UHGV virus genome: UHGV-0125821
From: a virus
Reading direction: 5' to 3' (one strand)
Length of the DNA stretch: 64,000 nt
A model generated the notes under the pieces. That model did not search any database. It was not told the origin of the DNA and was given only the letters and a program-made list of their open reading frames with translations. Positions 48,952-56,025 of the stretch are shown here, piece after piece; within the stretch, counting starts at the first letter, position 1; every line of letters starts with the position of its first letter. The position numbers and the translations under genes were made by a program.

Positions 48952-49122
48952 ATGGCTACTATCCCTACCCCAACTCATTCTGAATTTATCTGGCGTTTCT
49001 ATTCCTGCCAAAAGCACCTGTATATCTGCGTCATGGCTGCTACCGAATCAGAGGCGCGCTCATACCTTCCCGAAGAACCCTGCATTTTTGCTGCTCGCTT
49101 CACTCTAATTGAAAGGTCTTAA
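48952..49122 (+). CDS. Second Icd-like small protein (56 aa)
   Basis: SEFIWRFYSCQKHLYICVMAATESEARSYLP is paralogous to the 10206-10430 product; SD AAGGAGG. Confidence 0.45.
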   Translation: MATIPTPTHSEFIWRFYSCQKHLYICVMAATESEARSYLPEEPCIFAARFTLIERS

Positions 49123-49244
49123 CGATAGTCTGCCACGAATAGTTACTTCCACTGCCTAAAGTTATTTAATTGCATTACAAAGTGTAAATTAGTAACATTA
49201 GAATCTCACACAGCACTATAACTATATGTTTTTTATGTAAAAGG

Positions 49245-49604
49245 ATGATAATCGTGGCTACTAAAATTAAACTTGAAAACCCTCAAACTGGCGAATCAAT
49301 CACCGGTTTTTATGGTTTTTCCTGGACTACATTCTTGTTTGGTGCTTTTCCAGCTTTGTTCAGGAAAGACTTTATAACTTTTATTGGGGTATTTGTAGTG
49401 ATGCTGATACTGGCATTCCTCACAGCCGGAATTGGCCCGTGGATTGCCTCATTTATCTGGGCGTTCATGTATAATAAATATTTCACCGTAAATAAGATAA
49501 AACAAGGCTTCATTTTTGCTGGTTCTCACACAGAAAATGAGTTGGCTGCTAGCAAGCTAGGATTGTCATTAAATCAAAACAACTGCAAAACTATTACCGA
49601 GTAA
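49245..49604 (+). CDS. Small membrane protein (DUF2628-like, tentative)
   Basis: ENPQTGESITGFYGFSWTTFLFGAFPALFRKDF plus two TM helices; AT-rich gene. Confidence 0.45.
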   Translation: MIIVATKIKLENPQTGESITGFYGFSWTTFLFGAFPALFRKDFITFIGVFVVMLILAFLTAGIGPWIASFIWAFMYNKYFTVNKIKQGFIFAGSHTENELAASKLGLSLNQNNCKTITE

Positions 49605-49643
49605 AGCCAAAAAGCAGGCTTAATAGTAAGCCTGCTATGTCAA

Positions 49644-50477
49644 TCACGAATCTCTCTGACAATTCAGAAACATAAACGCCCGCTTGTCTGTTAAATCCGT
49701 AACATAATACTCTCTCATGCCTGTAGGTTTTATTCTACGAGCATATACAAACTTATGAACTGGTTGTTTTTCCCCATAACTTACATCAGTCCTAAATTCA
49801 TCAACCACGCTACCATCTTTTTCAGTTTCCTTTCTCACTAGCTGATTTTCTAATACAGGCTTTGATTCGTCCATGCCACTAAAAGCATCCTGACCTGTGC
49901 TGTTGCCTCGGTTTCCGCGTGGCAAATCCCATGAAAAATAAGTGCCATAGTCAGTAATCACACGATCCCATGTTCCGGAATCCCCCATATAGTTAGAACG
50001 CTCCCCCTTGTAAGTTACAGCCACCTTACAGGCATACGTTTCACCATTATTTTTTTTATCATGTCCAGCCATGCTTGCAGGAGTTGCAGGGGAATTATGA
50101 ATAGATGCGCTTACATCATCTTGCGTTAATTCCTCAACTGGAGCAAATTCATATATGGGTGTGCCGAGGCTATTTAAATATAACTTATATCTAACCCTAA
50201 GCGCACTTCCATCAGAGAATTCATACGTTCCCAGACATTGGAGCTTATTTTTTTCTCTTATCTCATTGATCTGATTATAAGCATCAATTACAGAGATTGC
50301 TTCCTGATCGTCCTTAAGCAGTTCATTATAATCATCGATTAACATCTGTCTGGTTTTAGGGGCATTACAGTCAATTTTGCTAAAATCATAAGCAAAGGCA
50401 AATGTGGGAACAGAGAGAGCAACAACAGTAGCAAGTATTGTTGAGGAACATCTTTTCCCATTTTTTATAAAAAACAT
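49644..50477 (-). CDS. Secreted/exported hypothetical protein (AT-rich cargo)
   Basis: Start at the internal Met (50477) gives a signal peptide MFFIKNGKRCSSTILATVVALSVPTFAFA with GGAG upstream; the track start at 50555 is less likely. Confidence 0.5.
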   Translation of the reverse strand: MFFIKNGKRCSSTILATVVALSVPTFAFAYDFSKIDCNAPKTRQMLIDDYNELLKDDQEAISVIDAYNQINEIREKNKLQCLGTYEFSDGSALRVRYKLYLNSLGTPIYEFAPVEELTQDDVSASIHNSPATPASMAGHDKKNNGETYACKVAVTYKGERSNYMGDSGTWDRVITDYGTYFSWDLPRGNRGNSTGQDAFSGMDESKPVLENQLVRKETEKDGSVVDEFRTDVSYGEKQPVHKFVYARRIKPTGMREYYVTDLTDKRAFMFLNCQRDS

Positions 50478-50821
50478 TTCATTAACTCCATACTTTACCA
50501 TCTTAGCCGCGAGCGCGGTCCCTAAAACCCTTAACTTCACTGCACCGTCCTTCATGCAATCAAAATGACTTTTATGTTATAAAAATAATCAGCAAAATCA
50601 ACATGATTTAGGCCAAATTTCGGTCAAAAATAAAATCCACAAAAAGTGGTTGACACTATTTTGGAAATCACAAACTGCACATAATCCATCGCGCTAACGG
50701 CTCCCGTTGAAGGTTCTTTTGACGATTAACTTTCAGCCGAAGCGCGGTAGGGAGTCATAACGCCAAAGCAGGCCGCCATGTGCGGCCTTTTTTTGTATCC
50801 GTCATCCGTGGAGGAAGGACA

Positions 50822-51475: not shown

Positions 51476-51803
51476 TCACATTAGTAGCTTTGTTAACTCC
51501 CTCAATACCAGGTAGAAGAGTAACAAAAATATTGACGCGAGTATTTGAGTGGTCAATGAAGCGTTCATAAACAGATCAATTAGCATTAATAATTCGAAGA
51601 TAACATCCATGTCATTCACTCCGTTTAATTTTTAATCTAATGCCAGCAAATGAAGCTGGCCCCCGCATAAAGATTAATGAAAGTCACTTGTCACCAGTGA
51701 GGGGATTTATGAACCACATCCCCCTGAACTGGTGGCCTGTCTGTTTCTCGCATTTCACACCCTGCATACAGTTTCCCCCAGGTTATGACTGAGAGGCTTT
51801 GTT

Positions 51804-52133
51804 ATGGGCTATAGCAGACTCGACGATAGGTACATTGAAGACGATATTTTTCGTGCGCTGTTTCACCAGGAAATGATTAAGCGGGTATCGGAGTATCACT
51901 CTGATAATTTCCAGTACACGATAAAGATTGATGAAGTATATCGTTCAGATCTTGCAGCCTACCGGGCGTATGGCAATGCAGATTTGCGCTGGGTATTCCG
52001 GGTGCTGGTGGGCCATGAGTCAGAAATGGAAGAAATGCCCGCAGGGACCACGTTAACTCTTCCTGATGTGGCATGGCTGAGGAACAAGATCCGTGATTAC
52101 GCGAGCGCGGAACCGGAGATAGAAAATGCCTGA
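51804..52133 (+). CDS. Hypothetical protein
   Basis: 109-aa ORF, coupled to the next gene. Confidence 0.45.
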   Translation: MGYSRLDDRYIEDDIFRALFHQEMIKRVSEYHSDNFQYTIKIDEVYRSDLAAYRAYGNADLRWVFRVLVGHESEMEEMPAGTTLTLPDVAWLRNKIRDYASAEPEIENA

Positions 52134-53319
52134 TTTCCTGAAAAACCAGGACGGGCGCTATATCACTGACGGCCTGTCCTCTAAGGACTTCACGCGTTTA
52201 TTCGAGCTTATCAGGAAAGAACAAACCCGTAAGCGCCGACAAGCTCACCGGACGCTGACGCCAGGTAGACTGAGGAACAAATCCGCCGAAGATATTCTCA
52301 AGTTAGGGAAGAAAAAAGGCGGCACGTTCTTCACGCGAGACGACCTGAAAGGTTTCGAAAAGCTACGGAGTAAAACGCGCGAAAAATACGACAGCAAGAC
52401 GGCTGGCATCACATACGCCCAGCTGGTGGCATCCAGCCAGGCAATCGATATTAAGCGTGCAAATAACGCCGTGGATGACGGATCTGGTATCAAAAGAGCT
52501 ACACCCGTATCTCTTCGCCACAATGTGATTAATATCCGCGTAGAAGCATCGGATATATCCGTCCACCAGCACCATATCGTCCGGATACGCTTTGAAGAAT
52601 GGGATCAGATGGTTGATGACATCGCAGAAGACGATAAATCAGCTCTCAAAATCACTAAATCACTGTGCGCCGGGCGAGTGTCTTTCGATTGTGACTGTGG
52701 TCGTCATCAATACTGGTATCGTTACATCGCCACTGCGGGTAACTTTGCCCTGGCACCGCCAAAAGAATACGCCTATCCAAAAGTTCGCAACCCGAAGCTG
52801 CAAGGCGTCGCCTGTAAACACGTGATCCACTCAATGACGCGGTTACAGTCCGCCAGTTGGCAAATGAGTATTGCTCGTGCGCTACAAAAGGCTGCAACGC
52901 AAATTGCATTTGGTGATGATCGCCGCCGTACAACCAAACACTTCTCAAAAGAAGACGAGAAGGAGTTTAATCGCAATCGTAGCAGTAAAACGAACGTTGA
53001 AGCCGCCAAACGCGAATGGAGGCTCTATCAGAAGCGCCAGGCAGCTTTAAGTACAAAACTGGCAAAGGACAACGGCAAGATCGACAAACTACGTGACCAA
53101 TTGACCAAGGCCAGAAAGTTGTCAGATGCACAGAAAAAACGGGCGGCAGCAAAAGAAGCGGCCTTGCAACGTGAGAAACAGAAAAACAAGGAGCTTCAGC
53201 AACGCCTTGCCGATCAGTTCGCACTGAAGAAGCAGGCGTTCATTGATGCGCTTGTCATGGCTGGAACACCACCAGCACAAGCTGAAAAAATGTTCATGGA
53301 GTATGTAAAAAAAGCATAA
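52126..53319 (+). CDS. SWIM-type zinc-finger protein with Lys-rich coiled-coil C-terminus
   Basis: CDCGRHQY...CKHVIH resembles a SWIM CxC...CxH module. Confidence 0.5.
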   Translation: MPDFLKNQDGRYITDGLSSKDFTRLFELIRKEQTRKRRQAHRTLTPGRLRNKSAEDILKLGKKKGGTFFTRDDLKGFEKLRSKTREKYDSKTAGITYAQLVASSQAIDIKRANNAVDDGSGIKRATPVSLRHNVINIRVEASDISVHQHHIVRIRFEEWDQMVDDIAEDDKSALKITKSLCAGRVSFDCDCGRHQYWYRYIATAGNFALAPPKEYAYPKVRNPKLQGVACKHVIHSMTRLQSASWQMSIARALQKAATQIAFGDDRRRTTKHFSKEDEKEFNRNRSSKTNVEAAKREWRLYQKRQAALSTKLAKDNGKIDKLRDQLTKARKLSDAQKKRAAAKEAALQREKQKNKELQQRLADQFALKKQAFIDALVMAGTPPAQAEKMFMEYVKKA

Positions 53320-53352
53320 ACCACACATAGCCTAGTAGTTTATGCTGGGCTT

Positions 53353-54081
53353 TCATTTTTTTGAAAGATCAATTCCAGTATTATCAAACAAACTGGAAAT
53401 ATCAGACACCAATTTATTAAAATGCTTGTCATCATTATAGAATGATGTGCTTTTTATAGCGACTATAAAATCACATAAATCTTGCGGAGATTCAATGCTA
53501 ACCCCCTTATTTTTATATAGTTCAATAATACTGCCAACATCAGTATGCAATAGTTTTATCGCGCCACAAATTTCTCGCTGTTTCGTAACCAAGTCATTAA
53601 GTTTATTTTCATTTTCATCTAAGATTTGTTTTGAATATTTAGCGTCATTGGTTGCTTGATTTAACTTTGTTTTCTTTCTTTGCAATTCTATTCTTTTATC
53701 ATAATCAGCAACTTCATCTAAATATCTTATTTCAGTGTATAATTTACTTGTTAGCTTAGATATCTTCAGTGTGAGAACAGGAGCTAACACAGATGCAAAT
53801 ACTCCATAAACAAATGGGATTACAACGTGATAAACCCACGGGGATACAATCCAATTATCAATGAACGGGACATTACCACCAACAGAAACAATAGATAATG
53901 TATATAGGATGTCGTCCTTTGACTTTAATATAATTAAAATATCCTTCCAGTTAAAAATTAGAAAAGAAATGACAACATATGCAAAAACCTTGTTAAATAT
54001 TTTATCTTTTATTATTTCAGAAAATGATTTTAGTTCTGTTTCATTTATAGACGGATTATCTTTAACTTTTTCTGACATCAT
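53353..54081 (-). CDS. Membrane-anchored coiled-coil protein (AT-rich cargo; exclusion/abortive-infection candidate)
   Basis: 242 aa with N-terminal TM helices then a long K/N/D-rich helical region; much lower GC than flanks. Confidence 0.5.
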   Translation of the reverse strand: MMSEKVKDNPSINETELKSFSEIIKDKIFNKVFAYVVISFLIFNWKDILIILKSKDDILYTLSIVSVGGNVPFIDNWIVSPWVYHVVIPFVYGVFASVLAPVLTLKISKLTSKLYTEIRYLDEVADYDKRIELQRKKTKLNQATNDAKYSKQILDENENKLNDLVTKQREICGAIKLLHTDVGSIIELYKNKGVSIESPQDLCDFIVAIKSTSFYNDDKHFNKLVSDISSLFDNTGIDLSKK

Positions 54082-54102
54082 AGCTTATCCTGATTACTTT
54101 TA

Positions 54103-54303
54103 TTATGGATAGTTAAAAGATTCAACAGGTGATGGTGGTTGAATTGGGTAATGTTTCTTCTCGTACTCCTCAATGAGAAGACTCATAACCTCAAAGAAAT
54201 CACCTTCCGGAGTATTCATTTCCGGTTCGTTATCGAACATCGGTTCGACCGCACGCAGTGCGGCCTCATAATCTTGTTCTGTACGGATAGGTTTAATGTT
54301 CAT
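54103..54303 (-). CDS. Small protein resembling the N-terminal domain of long HigA/HipB-type antitoxins
   Basis: IRTEQDYEAALRAVEPMFDNEPE...LLIEEYEKKHYPI pattern; 66 aa, no HTH; directly downstream of higA. Confidence 0.3.
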   Translation of the reverse strand: MNIKPIRTEQDYEAALRAVEPMFDNEPEMNTPEGDFFEVMSLLIEEYEKKHYPIQPPSPVESFNYP

Positions 54304-54359
54304 TAATTACAAAGGAAAGCCCACTTGCTAAGTGGGCTTTTTGTATGTGTTTTACTATA

Positions 54360-54698
54360 TCAGGCTGCTTTTTTATTCAGGTTCCGCTGAGAAATAAATT
54401 TTTCAGCAGTATTGATACGACTTAACTCTTCCTGAACGCGCATATCATTTTCGACTTCCCACAGATCTACTGCGGTCTGAAGATTAATCCAAAAATCTAC
54501 AGAAGTATCGAATGCTTTTGCCAGGCGATATGCCATATCCATCGTTAGCTTACGATTGTTATTAACAAGAGCACTTACGGTGTTACGATGAACATGAAGT
54601 ATTTCTGCTAACTCGTTGATCTTCAGCTCTAACGGCTCCAGGTATTCGTACAGCAGGATATCACCTACGGTCGTCGGTTTTCTGGTTGCCTGTTTCAT
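54360..54698 (-). CDS. higA: HigA antitoxin (XRE-family HTH)
   Basis: MKQATRKPTTVGDILLYEYLEPLELKINELAEILHVHRNTVSALVNN... is a typical HigA. Confidence 0.85.
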   Translation of the reverse strand: MKQATRKPTTVGDILLYEYLEPLELKINELAEILHVHRNTVSALVNNNRKLTMDMAYRLAKAFDTSVDFWINLQTAVDLWEVENDMRVQEELSRINTAEKFISQRNLNKKAA

Positions 54699-54768
54699 TT
54701 TTTGCCCTTACTAGCGTGCGTATTAAGTGGACTCTGGTCAGAACCCGGTCCGTAACCGGGTATCTGTT

Positions 54769-55071
54769 TTAGTATTTGTGAGGGTCGAGATACAAGTCCT
54801 CGGCCTTTCCGTTAACCCACTTAAAAATTAACCTATATTGCTTATTCACCCTTACTGATGAATAGCCATTTAGCTTCCCTGACAGTTCCTCATACCGATT
54901 ACCTGGTGGTGATCTTAAATCCTTACAGGTAGTTGCGGCATTGATAATGTCCAACTTCCGTGACAATGTCATATGAATATCAGGAGGTATCTTTCTATGT
55001 GGTGTTGAAAATTCAAAAAAATCATCAAGCCACGCATCCCTGAAATCCTTTATGTTAATTTTTTTGGTCAT
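54769..55071 (-). CDS. higB: HigB toxin (RelE/ParE superfamily)
   Basis: DDFFEF...LRSPPGNRYEELSGKLNGYSSVRVNKQYRLIF fits the HigB family; toxin gene precedes antitoxin as in higBA. Confidence 0.85.
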   Translation of the reverse strand: MTKKINIKDFRDAWLDDFFEFSTPHRKIPPDIHMTLSRKLDIINAATTCKDLRSPPGNRYEELSGKLNGYSSVRVNKQYRLIFKWVNGKAEDLYLDPHKY

Positions 55072-55221
55072 TAGTCATTTGATCCTCCGTGATGATTACC
55101 GAATGCCATAACTATAGCGCACCGTTGCACTGTGCGCAAGTGCATTTTATGAATTCCCCCTCCTTCATCCAAAATCACAATCTCCAGAAAATCTTCCTTT
55201 CGATACCTGACAGATCGACCT

Positions 55222-56025
55222 TTGAGGATGCTTATGGGCCGTTTTGACGAATGGTTTGCTGACGATGCAAACCTGGCAAGTAAGGAGTCAGAACATGACA
55301 GCACGCAGAGAGAAACGCCAGCGCCGATTGAAGCGAATGCAGGAGGCGCGCCGGAACATGGCAATACCGGTTCGGATTCATTCAGCATTCTGGAAGAGCA
55401 ACCCGCCGCCCAAGCTGATAGCCATGATAATTTTGCTGATAGCAACGGTGGCCTTACTCCGGATGCTGGCGAATCAGATATAGCCATACTTCCATCTTCC
55501 CTGGCTGGCAGAGAACCGACTCCACAGTTAAAAGCACGCTATAACGGGCATAAAGCCTTTAACGACCAAATCCGCGCAGACTGGATGCTGATTATTGAAT
55601 CCAGCCCAGACGCGTTTCAGGCTCTCTTATATCGACCAGATGTTGGCACATATGGGGTAGTCAGCGACGAAACAGGAGAAGAGTCATTCACTGAACTGGA
55701 TAACAACCAACGCGAACTGACTTACCAGGAACCTGAAATCGTTTATGTGCTGGATAACCCTGACGGGCGTGACTCTTTCCATGCGATTGACGCAGACGGT
55801 GAGCAGGATGGCTTAACCGATGATGTTCTGATTCTGCGTATTGCAGCAAATAACGTCCCCGTCGGCTCAATTCTTGAATGGAATGAAGAGATGGTAAACG
55901 GCGTAGCGCGCCGCTGGTGGTACGTGCACCGTATTTTTAGCTACGGCACACAGCATGTTGGTTCGCTTTACTACTGCATACCTGCCAGGAATTTTGATAC
56001 GACTCAAAACGGAGTGATCGAATGA
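55222..56025 (+). CDS. Hypothetical acidic protein (possible virion/baseplate module)
   Basis: 267 aa, Asp/Glu-rich; first gene of a coupled four-gene plus-strand cluster. Confidence 0.45.
   Translation: MRMLMGRFDEWFADDANLASKESEHDSTQRETPAPIEANAGGAPEHGNTGSDSFSILEEQPAAQADSHDNFADSNGGLTPDAGESDIAILPSSLAGREPTPQLKARYNGHKAFNDQIRADWMLIIESSPDAFQALLYRPDVGTYGVVSDETGEESFTELDNNQRELTYQEPEIVYVLDNPDGRDSFHAIDADGEQDGLTDDVLILRIAANNVPVGSILEWNEEMVNGVARRWWYVHRIFSYGTQHVGSLYYCIPARNFDTTQNGVIE

What the first reader, a model, noticed from the sequence alone, without database searches (positions are those of the whole stretch)
53330..55071. AT-rich membrane coiled-coil gene next to higBA plus an orphan antitoxin-N-domain-like ORF
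The 242-aa membrane-anchored coiled-coil protein (53353-54081) is compositionally foreign and lies beside a canonical higB-higA pair. The 66-aa ORF at 54103-54303 resembles the N-terminal domain of long HigA/HipB-type antitoxins but has no HTH. Together this looks like an addiction/abortive-infection islet, possibly with a remnant of a second toxin-antitoxin module.
Basis: partly seen in the sequence, partly recalled or inferred. Interest (0 to 1): 0.5.

Follow-up and report, generated by a model that had tools for sequence, protein, structure and literature searches.

The report
HigBA, antitoxin relic, variable membrane gene
A small accessory islet between two tail genes of a D6-like E. coli phage-plasmid holds an ordinary higBA toxin-antitoxin pair, the dead front half of a second antitoxin, and an AT-rich membrane protein of an uncharacterised, highly variable family found in several temperate phages; it is a candidate phage-exclusion gene, but its function is untested.

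Summary
The window is a D6-like (P1-family) phage-plasmid of E. coli. The islet lies on the minus strand between the homologues of P1 tail genes 25 and 7.

- **higBA pair:** HigB (PF05015, E 4e-35) and HigA (TIGR02607, 102 bits) are canonical and already annotated in phage D6 and RefSeq.
- **66-aa ORF:** it is a pseudogene, the first ~55-60 codons of a 119-aa E. coli K-12-type long HigA. Sister plasmids keep the full gene next to its cognate PF09907 HigB. In the D6 lineage a PF05015 higBA cassette replaced that toxin. In the window type (about 51 of 95 E. coli plasmids) the HTH half is also lost.
- **242-aa gene (29% GC):** it encodes two predicted TM helices, one ~85-residue coiled-coil helix and a small helical C-terminal domain. 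It matches no Pfam, NCBIfam, PADLOC, PDB or viral-fold family.
  - It is optional in D6-like plasmids.
  - It has at least 11 old allele classes (33-78% identity) between flanks that are ≥96% identical among the E. coli D6-like loci, all under purifying selection.
  - Distant relatives are solitary antisense genes in P2-like and lambdoid prophages.
  - A higB-higA-orf73 cassette also moves as a unit into Klebsiella plasmids.

It is not a virion or lysis component. Its function, probably phage exclusion or abortive infection, is inferred only.

The parts
54769..55071 (-). higB, 100-aa RelE-superfamily toxin of the HigB/GraT type (PF05015)
   Evidence: PF05015 matched 1-91 of 91, E 4.4e-35. phrog_3066 'toxin of TA system', 3.7e-37. 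Best solved relative is 6F8S, 'putative killer protein', 2.8e-14; Proteus HigB structures match at about 2e-3. The protein is identical in D6 orf70.
54360..54698 (-). higA, 112-aa short HTH antitoxin, cognate partner of higB
   Evidence: TIGR02607 antidote_HigA at 102.5 bits against a cutoff of 47.7. HTH_3 at 7e-11. phrog_1381 'plasmid antitoxin with HTH domain'.
54316..54342 (.). 11-13 bp GC-rich hairpin directly after higA. It looks like a terminator, with a better T-tract on the + strand than on the - strand, and it abuts the ATG of the 66-aa ORF.
   Evidence: Terminator scan and the sequence itself. The hairpin belongs to the PF05015 higBA cassette: loci with PF09907 higB have a GGAG Shine-Dalgarno sequence at this position instead.
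54103..54303 (-). Pseudogene: the N-terminal ~55-60 codons of a 119-aa K-12-type long HigA. The HTH half is deleted or replaced, and there is no Shine-Dalgarno sequence.
   Evidence: Alignment to D6 orf72 is near-identical up to about window 54141, diverges after that, and shows about 200 nt missing relative to D6. PD-Lambda-2_B positions 1-65, 2.5e-16. PGAP calls it a pseudogene. Megablast covers nt 1-182 of 360 in about 51 E. coli plasmids.
53353..54081 (-). orf73 homologue: 242-aa AT-rich protein with two predicted TM helices, a long coiled coil and a small helical C-terminal domain; uncharacterised family (phrog_8191)
   Evidence: Hydropathy. AlphaFold model. phrog_8191 at 6.6e-121, function unknown. 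No Pfam, NCBIfam or PADLOC match. 50 cluster representatives at E<=1e-3 among 1.8 billion. An AGGA Shine-Dalgarno sequence lies 6 nt before the ATG.
53329..53351 (.). Hairpin between the converging ends of orf73 and tail gene 25. It terminates gene 25 (T-run on the + strand) and bounds the orf73 unit.
   Evidence: Terminator scan. Every orf73 allele carries its own hairpin at this position.
55126..55144 (.). Palindrome TGCACT-N7-AGTGCA in the divergent higB / gene 7 intergenic region. It is probably a late-promoter element for the gene 7 operon, and it overlaps the weak -35 of a putative higBA promoter (TATAGT -10 on the minus strand).
   Evidence: A similar CACT-N7-AGTG + TTTATGAA element lies upstream of the gene 26/25 operon at 51685. 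The functional assignment is an inference.
52126..53319 (+). Left flank: homologue of P1 tail gene 25 (D6 orf74)
   Evidence: D6 annotation. 96-99.7% aa identity across the E. coli D6-like loci; 82% in the more distant L030.
55234..56025 (+). Right flank: homologue of P1 tail gene 7 (D6 orf69)
   Evidence: D6 and RefSeq annotation.

Best explanation
The islet is layered accessory cargo at the gene 25 | gene 7 junction of a D6-like phage-plasmid.

1. **higB-higA (PF05015 / TIGR02607).** This is an ordinary type II toxin-antitoxin pair. From family knowledge, HigB is a ribosome-dependent mRNA endonuclease, and HigA neutralises it and represses the operon. Its most likely role is addiction of the low-copy plasmid prophage.

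2. **The 66-aa ORF.** This is a dead relic. The ancestral cargo at this site was a PF09907 HigB plus a 119-aa K-12-type HigA. In the D6 lineage a PF05015 higBA cassette, with its own terminator, replaced the PF09907 toxin up to the antitoxin's ATG. That removed the antitoxin's Shine-Dalgarno sequence. In the window type, a further recombination that brought in a different orf73 allele removed the HTH half.

3. **orf73.** This is a self-contained moron. Its predicted topology is an inner-membrane protein with two TM helices and both termini probably in the cytoplasm. The membrane core is conserved (invariant N44, P89, G93, P101). The coiled coil and C-terminal domain are highly variable.

Inferred, not shown: orf73 is transcribed at a low level in the lysogen by read-through from the TA operon. 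It acts as a lysogenic-conversion factor that excludes or aborts infection by other phages, with the membrane core as effector and the variable cytoplasmic part as specificity determinant.
For: Shown:
- Identity of the element and the site.
- TA family matches.
- The full-length long HigA and its cognate PF09907 HigB occur at the same site in sister plasmids and in a metagenome contig.
- The swap boundary lies exactly at the long-higA ATG, with loss of the GGAG.
- The long higA is frameshifted in L024 and L029, and only nt 1-182 of it match in about 51 of 95 E. coli plasmids.
- orf73 is absent from otherwise syntenic plasmids carrying either TA type.
- There are at least 11 orf73 allele classes at 33-78% aa identity. 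Across the E. coli D6-like loci, gene 25 and the long higA stay at ≥96%.
- One allele class is found with both TA types.
- dS between classes is 0.5-1.6 with omega 0.2-0.5; omega within the window class is mostly 0.2-0.3, up to 0.86 in some pairs.
- The membrane part is conserved (75% and 58% mean identity) and the coiled coil is variable (25%).
- Distant members are solitary opposite-strand genes: between gpV and gpS of a P2-like prophage, in the early region of a lambdoid prophage, and in islands or IS-rich regions.
- No sigma-70-like promoter was found directly upstream of orf73, and a hairpin with a poor U-tract follows higA.

From my own knowledge: AT-rich, antisense, non-essential genes inside P2 late operons (old, tin, fun) are phage-exclusion genes.
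Against: - There is no experimental or homology evidence for any anti-phage activity of orf73. PADLOC finds nothing. Neighbours of the island-borne members gave no recognised defence system, only a WYL regulator, an HNH model hit and weak matches in a coiled-coil protein.
- The topology call is weak: K+R density is 0.21 before TM1, 0.11 in the loop and 0.11 after TM2.
- Expression in the lysogen is assumed, not shown.
- The 1.74-kb higB-higA-orf73 cassette is shared at 96% identity between a P1-like plasmid and Klebsiella IncFIB plasmids, and the homology ends at the orf73 stop codon. This argues that orf73 may not be fully independent of the TA pair.
- Toxicity of this HigB has not been tested.
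Confidence: 0.5

Rival explanations
1. orf73 is the third, effector or accessory, component of a tripartite HigB / long-HigA / membrane-protein system. This would be a TA-derived defence system analogous in logic to PD-lambda-2. The window would then hold a degenerate version whose cognate toxin and antitoxin have been replaced or lost.
For: - The order higB(PF09907)-long higA-orf73 recurs in D6-like plasmids.
- The same order occurs in a more distant P1-like plasmid whose TA proteins are only 25-28% identical (L030/L037).
- It also occurs as a discrete 1.74-kb cassette, 96% identical, in Klebsiella IncFIB plasmids, with homology ending at the orf73 stop.
- In every TA-linked version only a hairpin and no recognisable promoter separates higA from orf73.
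- PD-lambda-2 shows that HigB-like plus HigA-like plus a third gene can form a defence system in which the third gene is needed for defence (PMC9519451).
Against: - Both TA types exist at the same site without orf73.
- About 51 E. coli plasmids keep an intact, selectively constrained orf73 with no cognate PF09907 toxin and a truncated antitoxin.
- Most non-P1 family members are solitary.
- orf73 alleles reassort against TA type.
- orf73 does not match PD-Lambda-2_C, and the long HigA lacks the peptidase domain of PD-Lambda-2_B: only positions 1-119 of 402 are matched.
- All 46 Klebsiella copies appear truncated.
Confidence: 0.2
2. orf73 is a membrane-damaging toxin, and the upstream long HigA is its antitoxin. 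In the window the surviving 66-aa N-terminal domain would play that role, making a second, still active, antitoxin-toxin pair.
For: - The gene order, antitoxin first and toxin second, fits a classical type II operon.
- From my memory of the 5IFG structure papers, not checked here, the N-terminal domain of K-12-type HigA is the toxin-contacting part.
- The truncation keeps exactly that domain in about 51 plasmids.
Against: - The long HigA has a demonstrable cognate partner, PF09907 HigB, immediately upstream with a 3-nt gap or a 4-nt overlap between the two genes in sister loci.
- A terminator-like hairpin separates it from orf73.
- orf73 relatives are solitary in many genomes with no adjacent small gene.
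- The 66-aa ORF has no Shine-Dalgarno sequence and starts at the foot of a hairpin.
- The long higA is frameshifted next to an intact orf73 in L024 and L029.
Confidence: 0.05
3. orf73 serves the phage's own lytic cycle, for example as a holin, antiholin or lysis-timing factor, or as a membrane-associated assembly factor for the neighbouring tail and baseplate genes.
For: - It lies inside a tail/baseplate gene cluster.
- Two TM helices with N-in/C-in topology match class II holin topology (my own knowledge).
- A P2-like relative also sits between tail genes.
Against: - It is on the opposite strand to the late operons in D6-like, P2-like and lambdoid contexts.
- It is absent from syntenic D6-like plasmids.
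- It is hypervariable while the tail genes are ≥96% identical among the E. coli D6-like loci.
- Family members occur in non-phage plasmids and chromosomal islets.
- It has 29% GC.
Confidence: 0.05
4. orf73 has a lysogenic-conversion role unrelated to phages, such as membrane stress tolerance, colonisation or plasmid-plasmid competition, or it is selfish cargo with no benefit.
For: - There is no link to recognised defence genes.
- The same site can instead hold a 'stationary phase growth adaptation protein'.
- Some copies are decaying: split in L031, shortened in L026, and interrupted by an insertion in Klebsiella, where PLSDB annotates IS903B at the match in most sampled plasmids.
Against: - Many ancient allele classes kept at one site by recombination, with purifying selection within classes, suggest selection for diversity. 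That pattern is typical of conflict genes.
- Recurrent placement as an antisense moron in three unrelated temperate-phage types.
Confidence: 0.2

Closest known systems
HigB-HigA of the PF05015 / TIGR02607 type (Proteus vulgaris Rts1 HigBA, Pseudomonas putida GraTA, PDB 6F8S); annotated as orf70/orf71 in phage D6
   Same: Toxin-first gene order, protein sizes, full-length profile matches, and HTH_3 in the antitoxin. The D6 proteins are identical. Published descriptions of D6-like plasmids already list higA-higB as a second post-segregational killing system (PMC6799933).
   Different: Nothing structural. Toxicity and operator binding have not been tested for this pair, and the catalytic residues were not mapped here.
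E. coli K-12 HigB-HigA (PF09907 toxin with a 138-aa two-domain antitoxin; PDB 5IFG, 5YCL)
   Same: D6 orf72 (119 aa) aligns to K-12 HigA across the N-terminal domain and the HTH, E 8e-8. Sister plasmids carry a PF09907 HigB directly upstream. The window's 66-aa ORF is the N-terminal domain of this protein.
   Different: In the window the HTH half and the cognate toxin are gone, there is no ribosome-binding site, and PGAP calls the ORF a pseudogene.
PD-lambda-2 (Vassallo et al. 2022, PMC9519451): HigB-like, HigA-like-peptidase fusion and a third gene
   Same: The long HigA matches positions 1-119 of PD-Lambda-2_B, E 4e-43. Both have a three-gene layout with a non-TA third gene downstream.
   Different: There is no peptidase domain. 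orf73 does not match PD-Lambda-2_C, which is described as related to a P4 antitoxin and is not a membrane protein. The window has neither the matching toxin nor an intact B component.
AT-rich antisense lysogenic-conversion genes inside late operons of temperate phages (P2 old, tin, fun(Z), Orf30; HK97 gp15 and similar superinfection-exclusion membrane proteins)
   Same: Low GC, opposite strand to the late genes, non-essential and optional, bounded by terminators, and membrane-located in several cases. A family member occupies the very S|V site where P2 has Orf30.
   Different: No sequence or profile similarity: hhalign probability is 0.2 against P2 Orf30. The two-TM plus ~85-residue coiled-coil architecture is not that of any exclusion protein I know of. 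No function has been shown.

Membership tests
HigB toxin (PF05015, RelE superfamily) | Profile match above the Pfam gathering score over the full domain | tested here: met
   120.5 bits against a cutoff of 27, positions 1-91 of 91
HigB toxin (PF05015, RelE superfamily) | Toxin gene upstream of an adjacent HTH antitoxin gene (reverse TA order) | tested here: met
   higB 55071-54769 precedes higA 54698-54360 on the same strand, with a 70-nt gap
HigB toxin (PF05015, RelE superfamily) | Growth inhibition by mRNA cleavage, relieved by HigA | not testable with these tools
   Needs expression and rescue assays
HigA antitoxin (TIGR02607) | Equivalog profile above the curated cutoff, with an HTH_3 domain | tested here: met
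   102.5 bits against 47.7; HTH_3 at 7e-11
K-12-type long HigA (5IFG-like), for the 66-aa ORF | N-terminal helical domain homologous to the family | tested here: met
   PD-Lambda-2_B positions 1-65 at 2.5e-16. 90.8% identity over 65 residues to the N-terminus of D6 orf72. orf72 matches 5IFG at 8e-8.
K-12-type long HigA (5IFG-like), for the 66-aa ORF | C-terminal HTH DNA-binding domain | tested here: not met
   No HTH hit. Alignment to D6 shows that the HTH-coding half is missing. PGAP labels it 'missing C-terminus'.
K-12-type long HigA (5IFG-like), for the 66-aa ORF | Cognate PF09907 HigB immediately upstream | tested here: not met
   Absent from the window. Present in sister loci L004, L008, L009, L025, L027.
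PD-lambda-2 defence system | B component with a HigA-like domain fused to a peptidase | tested here: not met
   Only positions 1-119 of the 402-position profile are matched, even by the intact 119-aa protein
PD-lambda-2 defence system | C component homologous to PD-Lambda-2_C | tested here: not met
   Neither orf73 allele gives any PADLOC hit
Any catalogued anti-phage defence protein (PADLOC 2.0), for orf73 | Profile match to a defence-system component | tested here: not met
   0 families at E<=0.01
Conserved virion or lysis component of D6/P1-like phages, for orf73 | Present and conserved in syntenic relatives, co-oriented with the late operons | tested here: not met
   Absent in L006, L009 and L010. 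On the opposite strand. 33-78% identity between alleles against ≥96% flanks among the E. coli D6-like loci.
Prophage moron / lysogenic-conversion gene, for orf73 | Optional, compositionally deviant, own terminator, inserted between conserved phage genes in the opposite orientation, recurring in unrelated phages | tested here: met
Prophage moron / lysogenic-conversion gene, for orf73 | Expressed from the prophage and conferring a host phenotype | not testable with these tools
   Needs transcript data and phenotype assays. No sigma-70 consensus promoter was found directly upstream.

The most novel reading that the evidence does not exclude
orf73 would found a previously unrecognised family of single-gene, membrane-anchored coiled-coil phage-exclusion or abortive-infection proteins, carried as antisense morons by P1/D6-like, P2-like and lambdoid temperate phages.

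At the D6 25|7 site it would be kept as at least 11 ancient allele classes by recombination and frequency-dependent selection. The conserved two-TM core (N44, P89, G93, P101) would be the effector and the variable coiled coil the sensor.

Where it follows a HigB / long-HigA operon, its dose would be set by read-through from the autoregulated TA promoter. That would make higB-higA-orf73 a new tripartite TA-coupled defence cassette.
Probability: 0.3. Interest if true: 0.65.

Novelty: new variant of a known kind. Interest (0 to 1): 0.42.

Why it matters
The TA part is routine, and it explains why D6-like plasmids are stably kept.

The useful outcomes are these:

- **History of the site.** One TA cassette replaced the toxin of another, leaving an orphan antitoxin at several stages of decay. 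This is a clean natural example of TA turnover at a phage-plasmid hotspot.
- **A candidate gene family.** The uncharacterised membrane protein family shows the population-genetic signature of a conflict gene: optional, many old alleles and conserved flanks. It recurs in three temperate-phage types.
- **A gap it could fill.** A published survey found a complete recognised defence system in only one D6-like phage-plasmid from an E. coli isolate (bioRxiv 10.1101/2025.09.12.675607). If orf73 is an exclusion factor, it would add a new single-gene system. The alleles are short and easy to test.

Tried and rejected
- **Family scans.** Pfam, NCBIfam and PADLOC scans of orf73 and of 33 family members gave only coiled-coil noise.
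- **Solved structures.** A profile search of PDB sequences gave only coiled-coil proteins, best E 1.3e-3.
- **Structure models.** The first AlphaFold run, with 4 sequences, was poor (pLDDT 54). The second, with 27 sequences, was usable.
- **Genome-contig scan.** It found no relative. The 33-sequence alignment was too diverse for the search for related loci.
- **Phage collection.** tblastn found the family only in D6.
- **P2 Orf30.** It is at the analogous site but is not homologous.
- **Neighbours of island-borne members.** They matched no recognised defence system, only a WYL regulator, an HNH model hit and weak JetC/LmuB matches in a coiled-coil protein.
- **Promoter scan.** It was not enriched over shuffles and placed no site upstream of orf73.
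- **Positive-inside analysis.** It only weakly supports N-in/C-in topology.
- **Literature.** The D6 genome paper is not held. A search for coiled-coil membrane exclusion morons found nothing.
- **Palindrome at 55126-55144.** I first read it as a HigA operator. I now think it is more likely a late-promoter element, because a similar element precedes the gene 26/25 operon.
Full report
**What the window is**

The 2.5 kb around the finding is 100% identical to E. coli plasmid p1_035148 (NZ_CP029365) and 91.5% identical to phage D6. In 5,426 complete E. coli genomes the region occurs in 102 records. All of them are plasmids of about 59-216 kb, mostly about 90 kb, and none is chromosomal. D6's annotation names the flanking genes as homologues of P1 tail genes 26, 25 | 7, 24, 6, 5. 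The islet is therefore accessory cargo on the opposite strand, at the gene 25 | gene 7 junction of a D6-like (P1-family) phage-plasmid.

**Check of the observation**

- All four ORFs exist as described.
- The 242-aa gene has 29.2% GC. The flanks have 49-50% and the window 47.7%.
- HigB matches PF05015 end to end (E 4.4e-35). Its closest solved relative is 6F8S.
- HigA passes the TIGR02607 equivalog cutoff, 102.5 against 47.7 bits.
- The pair is identical to D6 orf70/orf71. The literature on D6-like plasmids already lists it as a second killing system beside phd-doc (PMC6799933).
- This part of the finding is correct and already known.

**The 66-aa ORF**

- It matches only the first 65 positions of PADLOC PD-Lambda-2_B (2.5e-16) and of phrog_1373, and it has no HTH.
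- D6 has a 119-aa gene (orf72) at this position. It aligns with E. coli K-12 HigA (5IFG/5YCL) over both the N-terminal domain and the HTH (E 8e-8).
- The DNA alignment shows window and D6 nearly identical from higA to about window 54141. After that the sequences diverge, about 200 nt are missing, and the downstream gene is only about 57-59% identical in protein.
- RefSeq's PGAP marks the ORF as a pseudogene.
- The cognate toxin is found in sister elements. A metagenome contig and several E. coli plasmids carry a PF09907 HigB whose stop lies 3 nt before the ATG of the intact 119-aa gene.
- Comparing junctions shows that the PF05015 higBA cassette, with its terminal hairpin, replaces the PF09907 toxin right up to that ATG. 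This removes the GGAG ribosome-binding site.
- The orphaned antitoxin is then seen decaying: it is frameshifted in L024 and L029, and only nt 1-182 match in about 51 of 95 E. coli plasmids.
The ORF is most likely untranslated junk.

**The 242-aa protein (D6 orf73 homologue)**

- It has two hydrophobic segments, 32-52 and 82-105.
- An AlphaFold model built on 27 family members (pLDDT 75.5) shows the following elements in order:
  - an N-terminal amphipathic helix;
  - a kinked TM1;
  - a short loop with a beta-hairpin;
  - one unbroken helix from 81 to 192 (TM2 running into a coiled coil);
  - a small three-helix C-terminal domain.
- It matches phrog_8191 (function unknown) and nothing in Pfam, NCBIfam, PADLOC, PDB sequences, BFVD or PDB folds beyond coiled-coil noise.
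- A full HMMER scan of 1.8 billion cluster representatives finds only 50 relatives at E<=1e-3.
- Across 27 members the invariant residues (N44, P89, G93, P101) all lie in the membrane segments.
- Among D6-like alleles the TM1 region is 75% identical and TM2 58%, while the coiled coil is 25%. The membrane part is therefore more than an anchor.

**Population picture at the site**

The 25|7 junction holds any of the following:

| Cargo at the site | Example loci |
|---|---|
| PF09907 higB + long higA | L009 |
| The same plus orf73 | L004, L008, L025, L027, L032 |
| PF05015 higBA + long higA | L006 |
| The same plus orf73 | D6 (L002), L005, L007 |
| The window type | — |
| A 'stationary phase growth adaptation protein' | L010 |

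- In complete E. coli genomes orf73 is in 75 plasmids. Of these, 51 carry the window allele and 24 carry alleles at 60-80% DNA identity. The 51 match the number of truncated antitoxins.
- Eighteen sampled loci fall into at least 11 allele classes (below 85% aa identity; 33-78% between classes). Across the E. coli D6-like loci, gene 25 and the long higA are ≥96% identical.
- One allele class occurs with both TA types.
- Synonymous divergence between classes is 0.5-1.6 with omega 0.2-0.5. Within the window class omega is mostly 0.2-0.3, reaching 0.86 in some pairs.
- The alleles are therefore old, functional lineages shuffled into nearly identical backbones. They are not recent hypermutation.
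- Loci without orf73 have a hybrid hairpin, made of the left arm of the higA hairpin and the right arm and tail of the orf73 terminator. This defines a clean insertion or excision unit.

**Beyond D6**

Distant family members are solitary genes:
- on the opposite strand between gpV and gpS of a P2-like prophage, the site where P2 has the unrelated membrane gene Orf30;
- on the opposite strand in the early region of a lambdoid prophage;
- in islands with H-NS, methylase, IS or resolvase genes, or in small chromosomal islets.

Against full independence, a 1.74-kb higB(103 aa)-HTH(139 aa)-orf73 cassette is 96% identical between a P1-like plasmid and Klebsiella IncFIB plasmids. The homology stops at the orf73 stop codon. 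The Klebsiella copy is interrupted by an insertion of about 1 kb, and 46 Klebsiella plasmids carry the truncated copy.

**How it most likely works**

Shown: the islet is an intact canonical TA pair, a relic, and an optional, selectively maintained, hypervariable membrane gene that behaves as a moron.

Inferred:
- higBA acts in plasmid addiction (family knowledge).
- orf73 is transcribed in the lysogen by read-through past weak hairpins from the TA promoter. No consensus promoter lies upstream, and an AGGA Shine-Dalgarno sequence is present.
- orf73 acts at the inner membrane as an exclusion or abortive-infection factor, with specificity in the variable cytoplasmic coiled coil and C-terminal domain.

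I give the whole statement 0.5. The structural and evolutionary part I would put at about 0.85, and the anti-phage function at about 0.35.

Rivals and their weights:

| Rival | Weight |
|---|---|
| Third component of a tripartite HigBA-type system | 0.2 |
| Conversion function unrelated to phages, or selfish cargo | 0.2 |
| Membrane toxin neutralised by the long HigA or its N-terminal domain | 0.05 |
| Role in the phage's own lytic cycle | 0.05 |

**Comparison with known systems**

- The higBA pair is a member of the PF05015/TIGR02607 family.
- The relic is a truncated member of the K-12 HigA family and fails the HTH and cognate-toxin criteria.
- The locus is not PD-lambda-2: it has no peptidase domain and no C-component homologue.
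- orf73 resembles P2's AT-rich antisense conversion genes in position and behaviour but shares no sequence with them.

**Verdict**

- The TA pair and the pseudogene are ordinary and already annotated.
- The membrane family is uncharacterised and has a suggestive conflict-gene signature.
- It is worth a simple wet-lab test but is not yet a discovery.
- Interest is 0.42.

Noticed in passing
window 51685-51699 and 55128-55142 (+ strand): Two CACT-N7-AGTG palindromes, each followed by TTTATGAA, lie upstream of the gene 26/25 operon and the gene 7/24/6/5 operon. They look like P1-type late-promoter elements. The second also overlaps the putative higBA promoter on the other strand. The pattern occurs 3 times in the window against 0.59 expected by chance.
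   Followed up: partly
L010 1553-2092 and L029 6811-7290 (same 25|7 site in other D6-like plasmids): A 179-aa 'stationary phase growth adaptation protein' occupies the site. In L010 it replaces the TA/orf73 islet. In L029 it sits beside the islet. The junction is therefore a multi-cargo hotspot.
   Followed up: partly
L051 3959-6748 (Klebsiella quasipneumoniae IncFIB/IncU plasmid NZ_CP102922) versus L037 4010-5740: A higB-HTH-orf73 cassette is 96% identical between a P1-like phage-plasmid and Klebsiella plasmids. The Klebsiella orf73 is interrupted by about 1 kb, with a 9-bp overlap at the junction. In most of the sampled Klebsiella plasmids PLSDB annotates an IS903B transposase at the match. 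46 Klebsiella plasmids in PLSDB carry the truncated copy.
   Followed up: partly
L006 and L009, about 1320-1357 (between the long higA stop and the gene 25 stop): Loci without orf73 carry a hybrid hairpin, GGCGGTCtgtatGACCGCC + TTTGTTGT. It combines the hairpin after the long higA with the terminator tail that follows orf73 in classes 5 and 6. orf73 was therefore gained or lost by recombination within the two similar hairpins.
   Followed up: partly
L050 9439-10224 (phage P2 Orf30): P2's non-essential Orf30 lies on the opposite strand between S and V, exactly where orf73-family member P0018 lies in a P2-like prophage (L033). By eye it is also a hydrophobic, probably membrane, protein (not analysed). 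It is not homologous to the orf73 family (hhalign probability 0.2).
   Followed up: yes
NZ_CP134379.1 34020-37856 (hit H33/H96): In one E. coli D6-like plasmid an IS3-family transposase is inserted in the islet and splits the long-higA remnant. Only nt 1-106 match at one place, and the record has 2 matching places.
   Followed up: no
window 54743-54761: A 7-bp GC-rich hairpin (ACCCGGTccgtaACCGGGT) lies in the 70-nt spacer between higB and higA. It has no T-tract on the coding strand. Its role is unknown; it could be an RNA processing or translational coupling element.
   Followed up: no
window 49000-50700: A second AT-rich patch (GC 0.36-0.40) lies upstream of the tail genes. It holds a minus-strand 303-aa ORF (49644-50555), at the position where D6 annotates a simB-like 'superimmunity accessory' gene. 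RefSeq splits this region into two hypothetical proteins in the identical plasmid.
   Followed up: no
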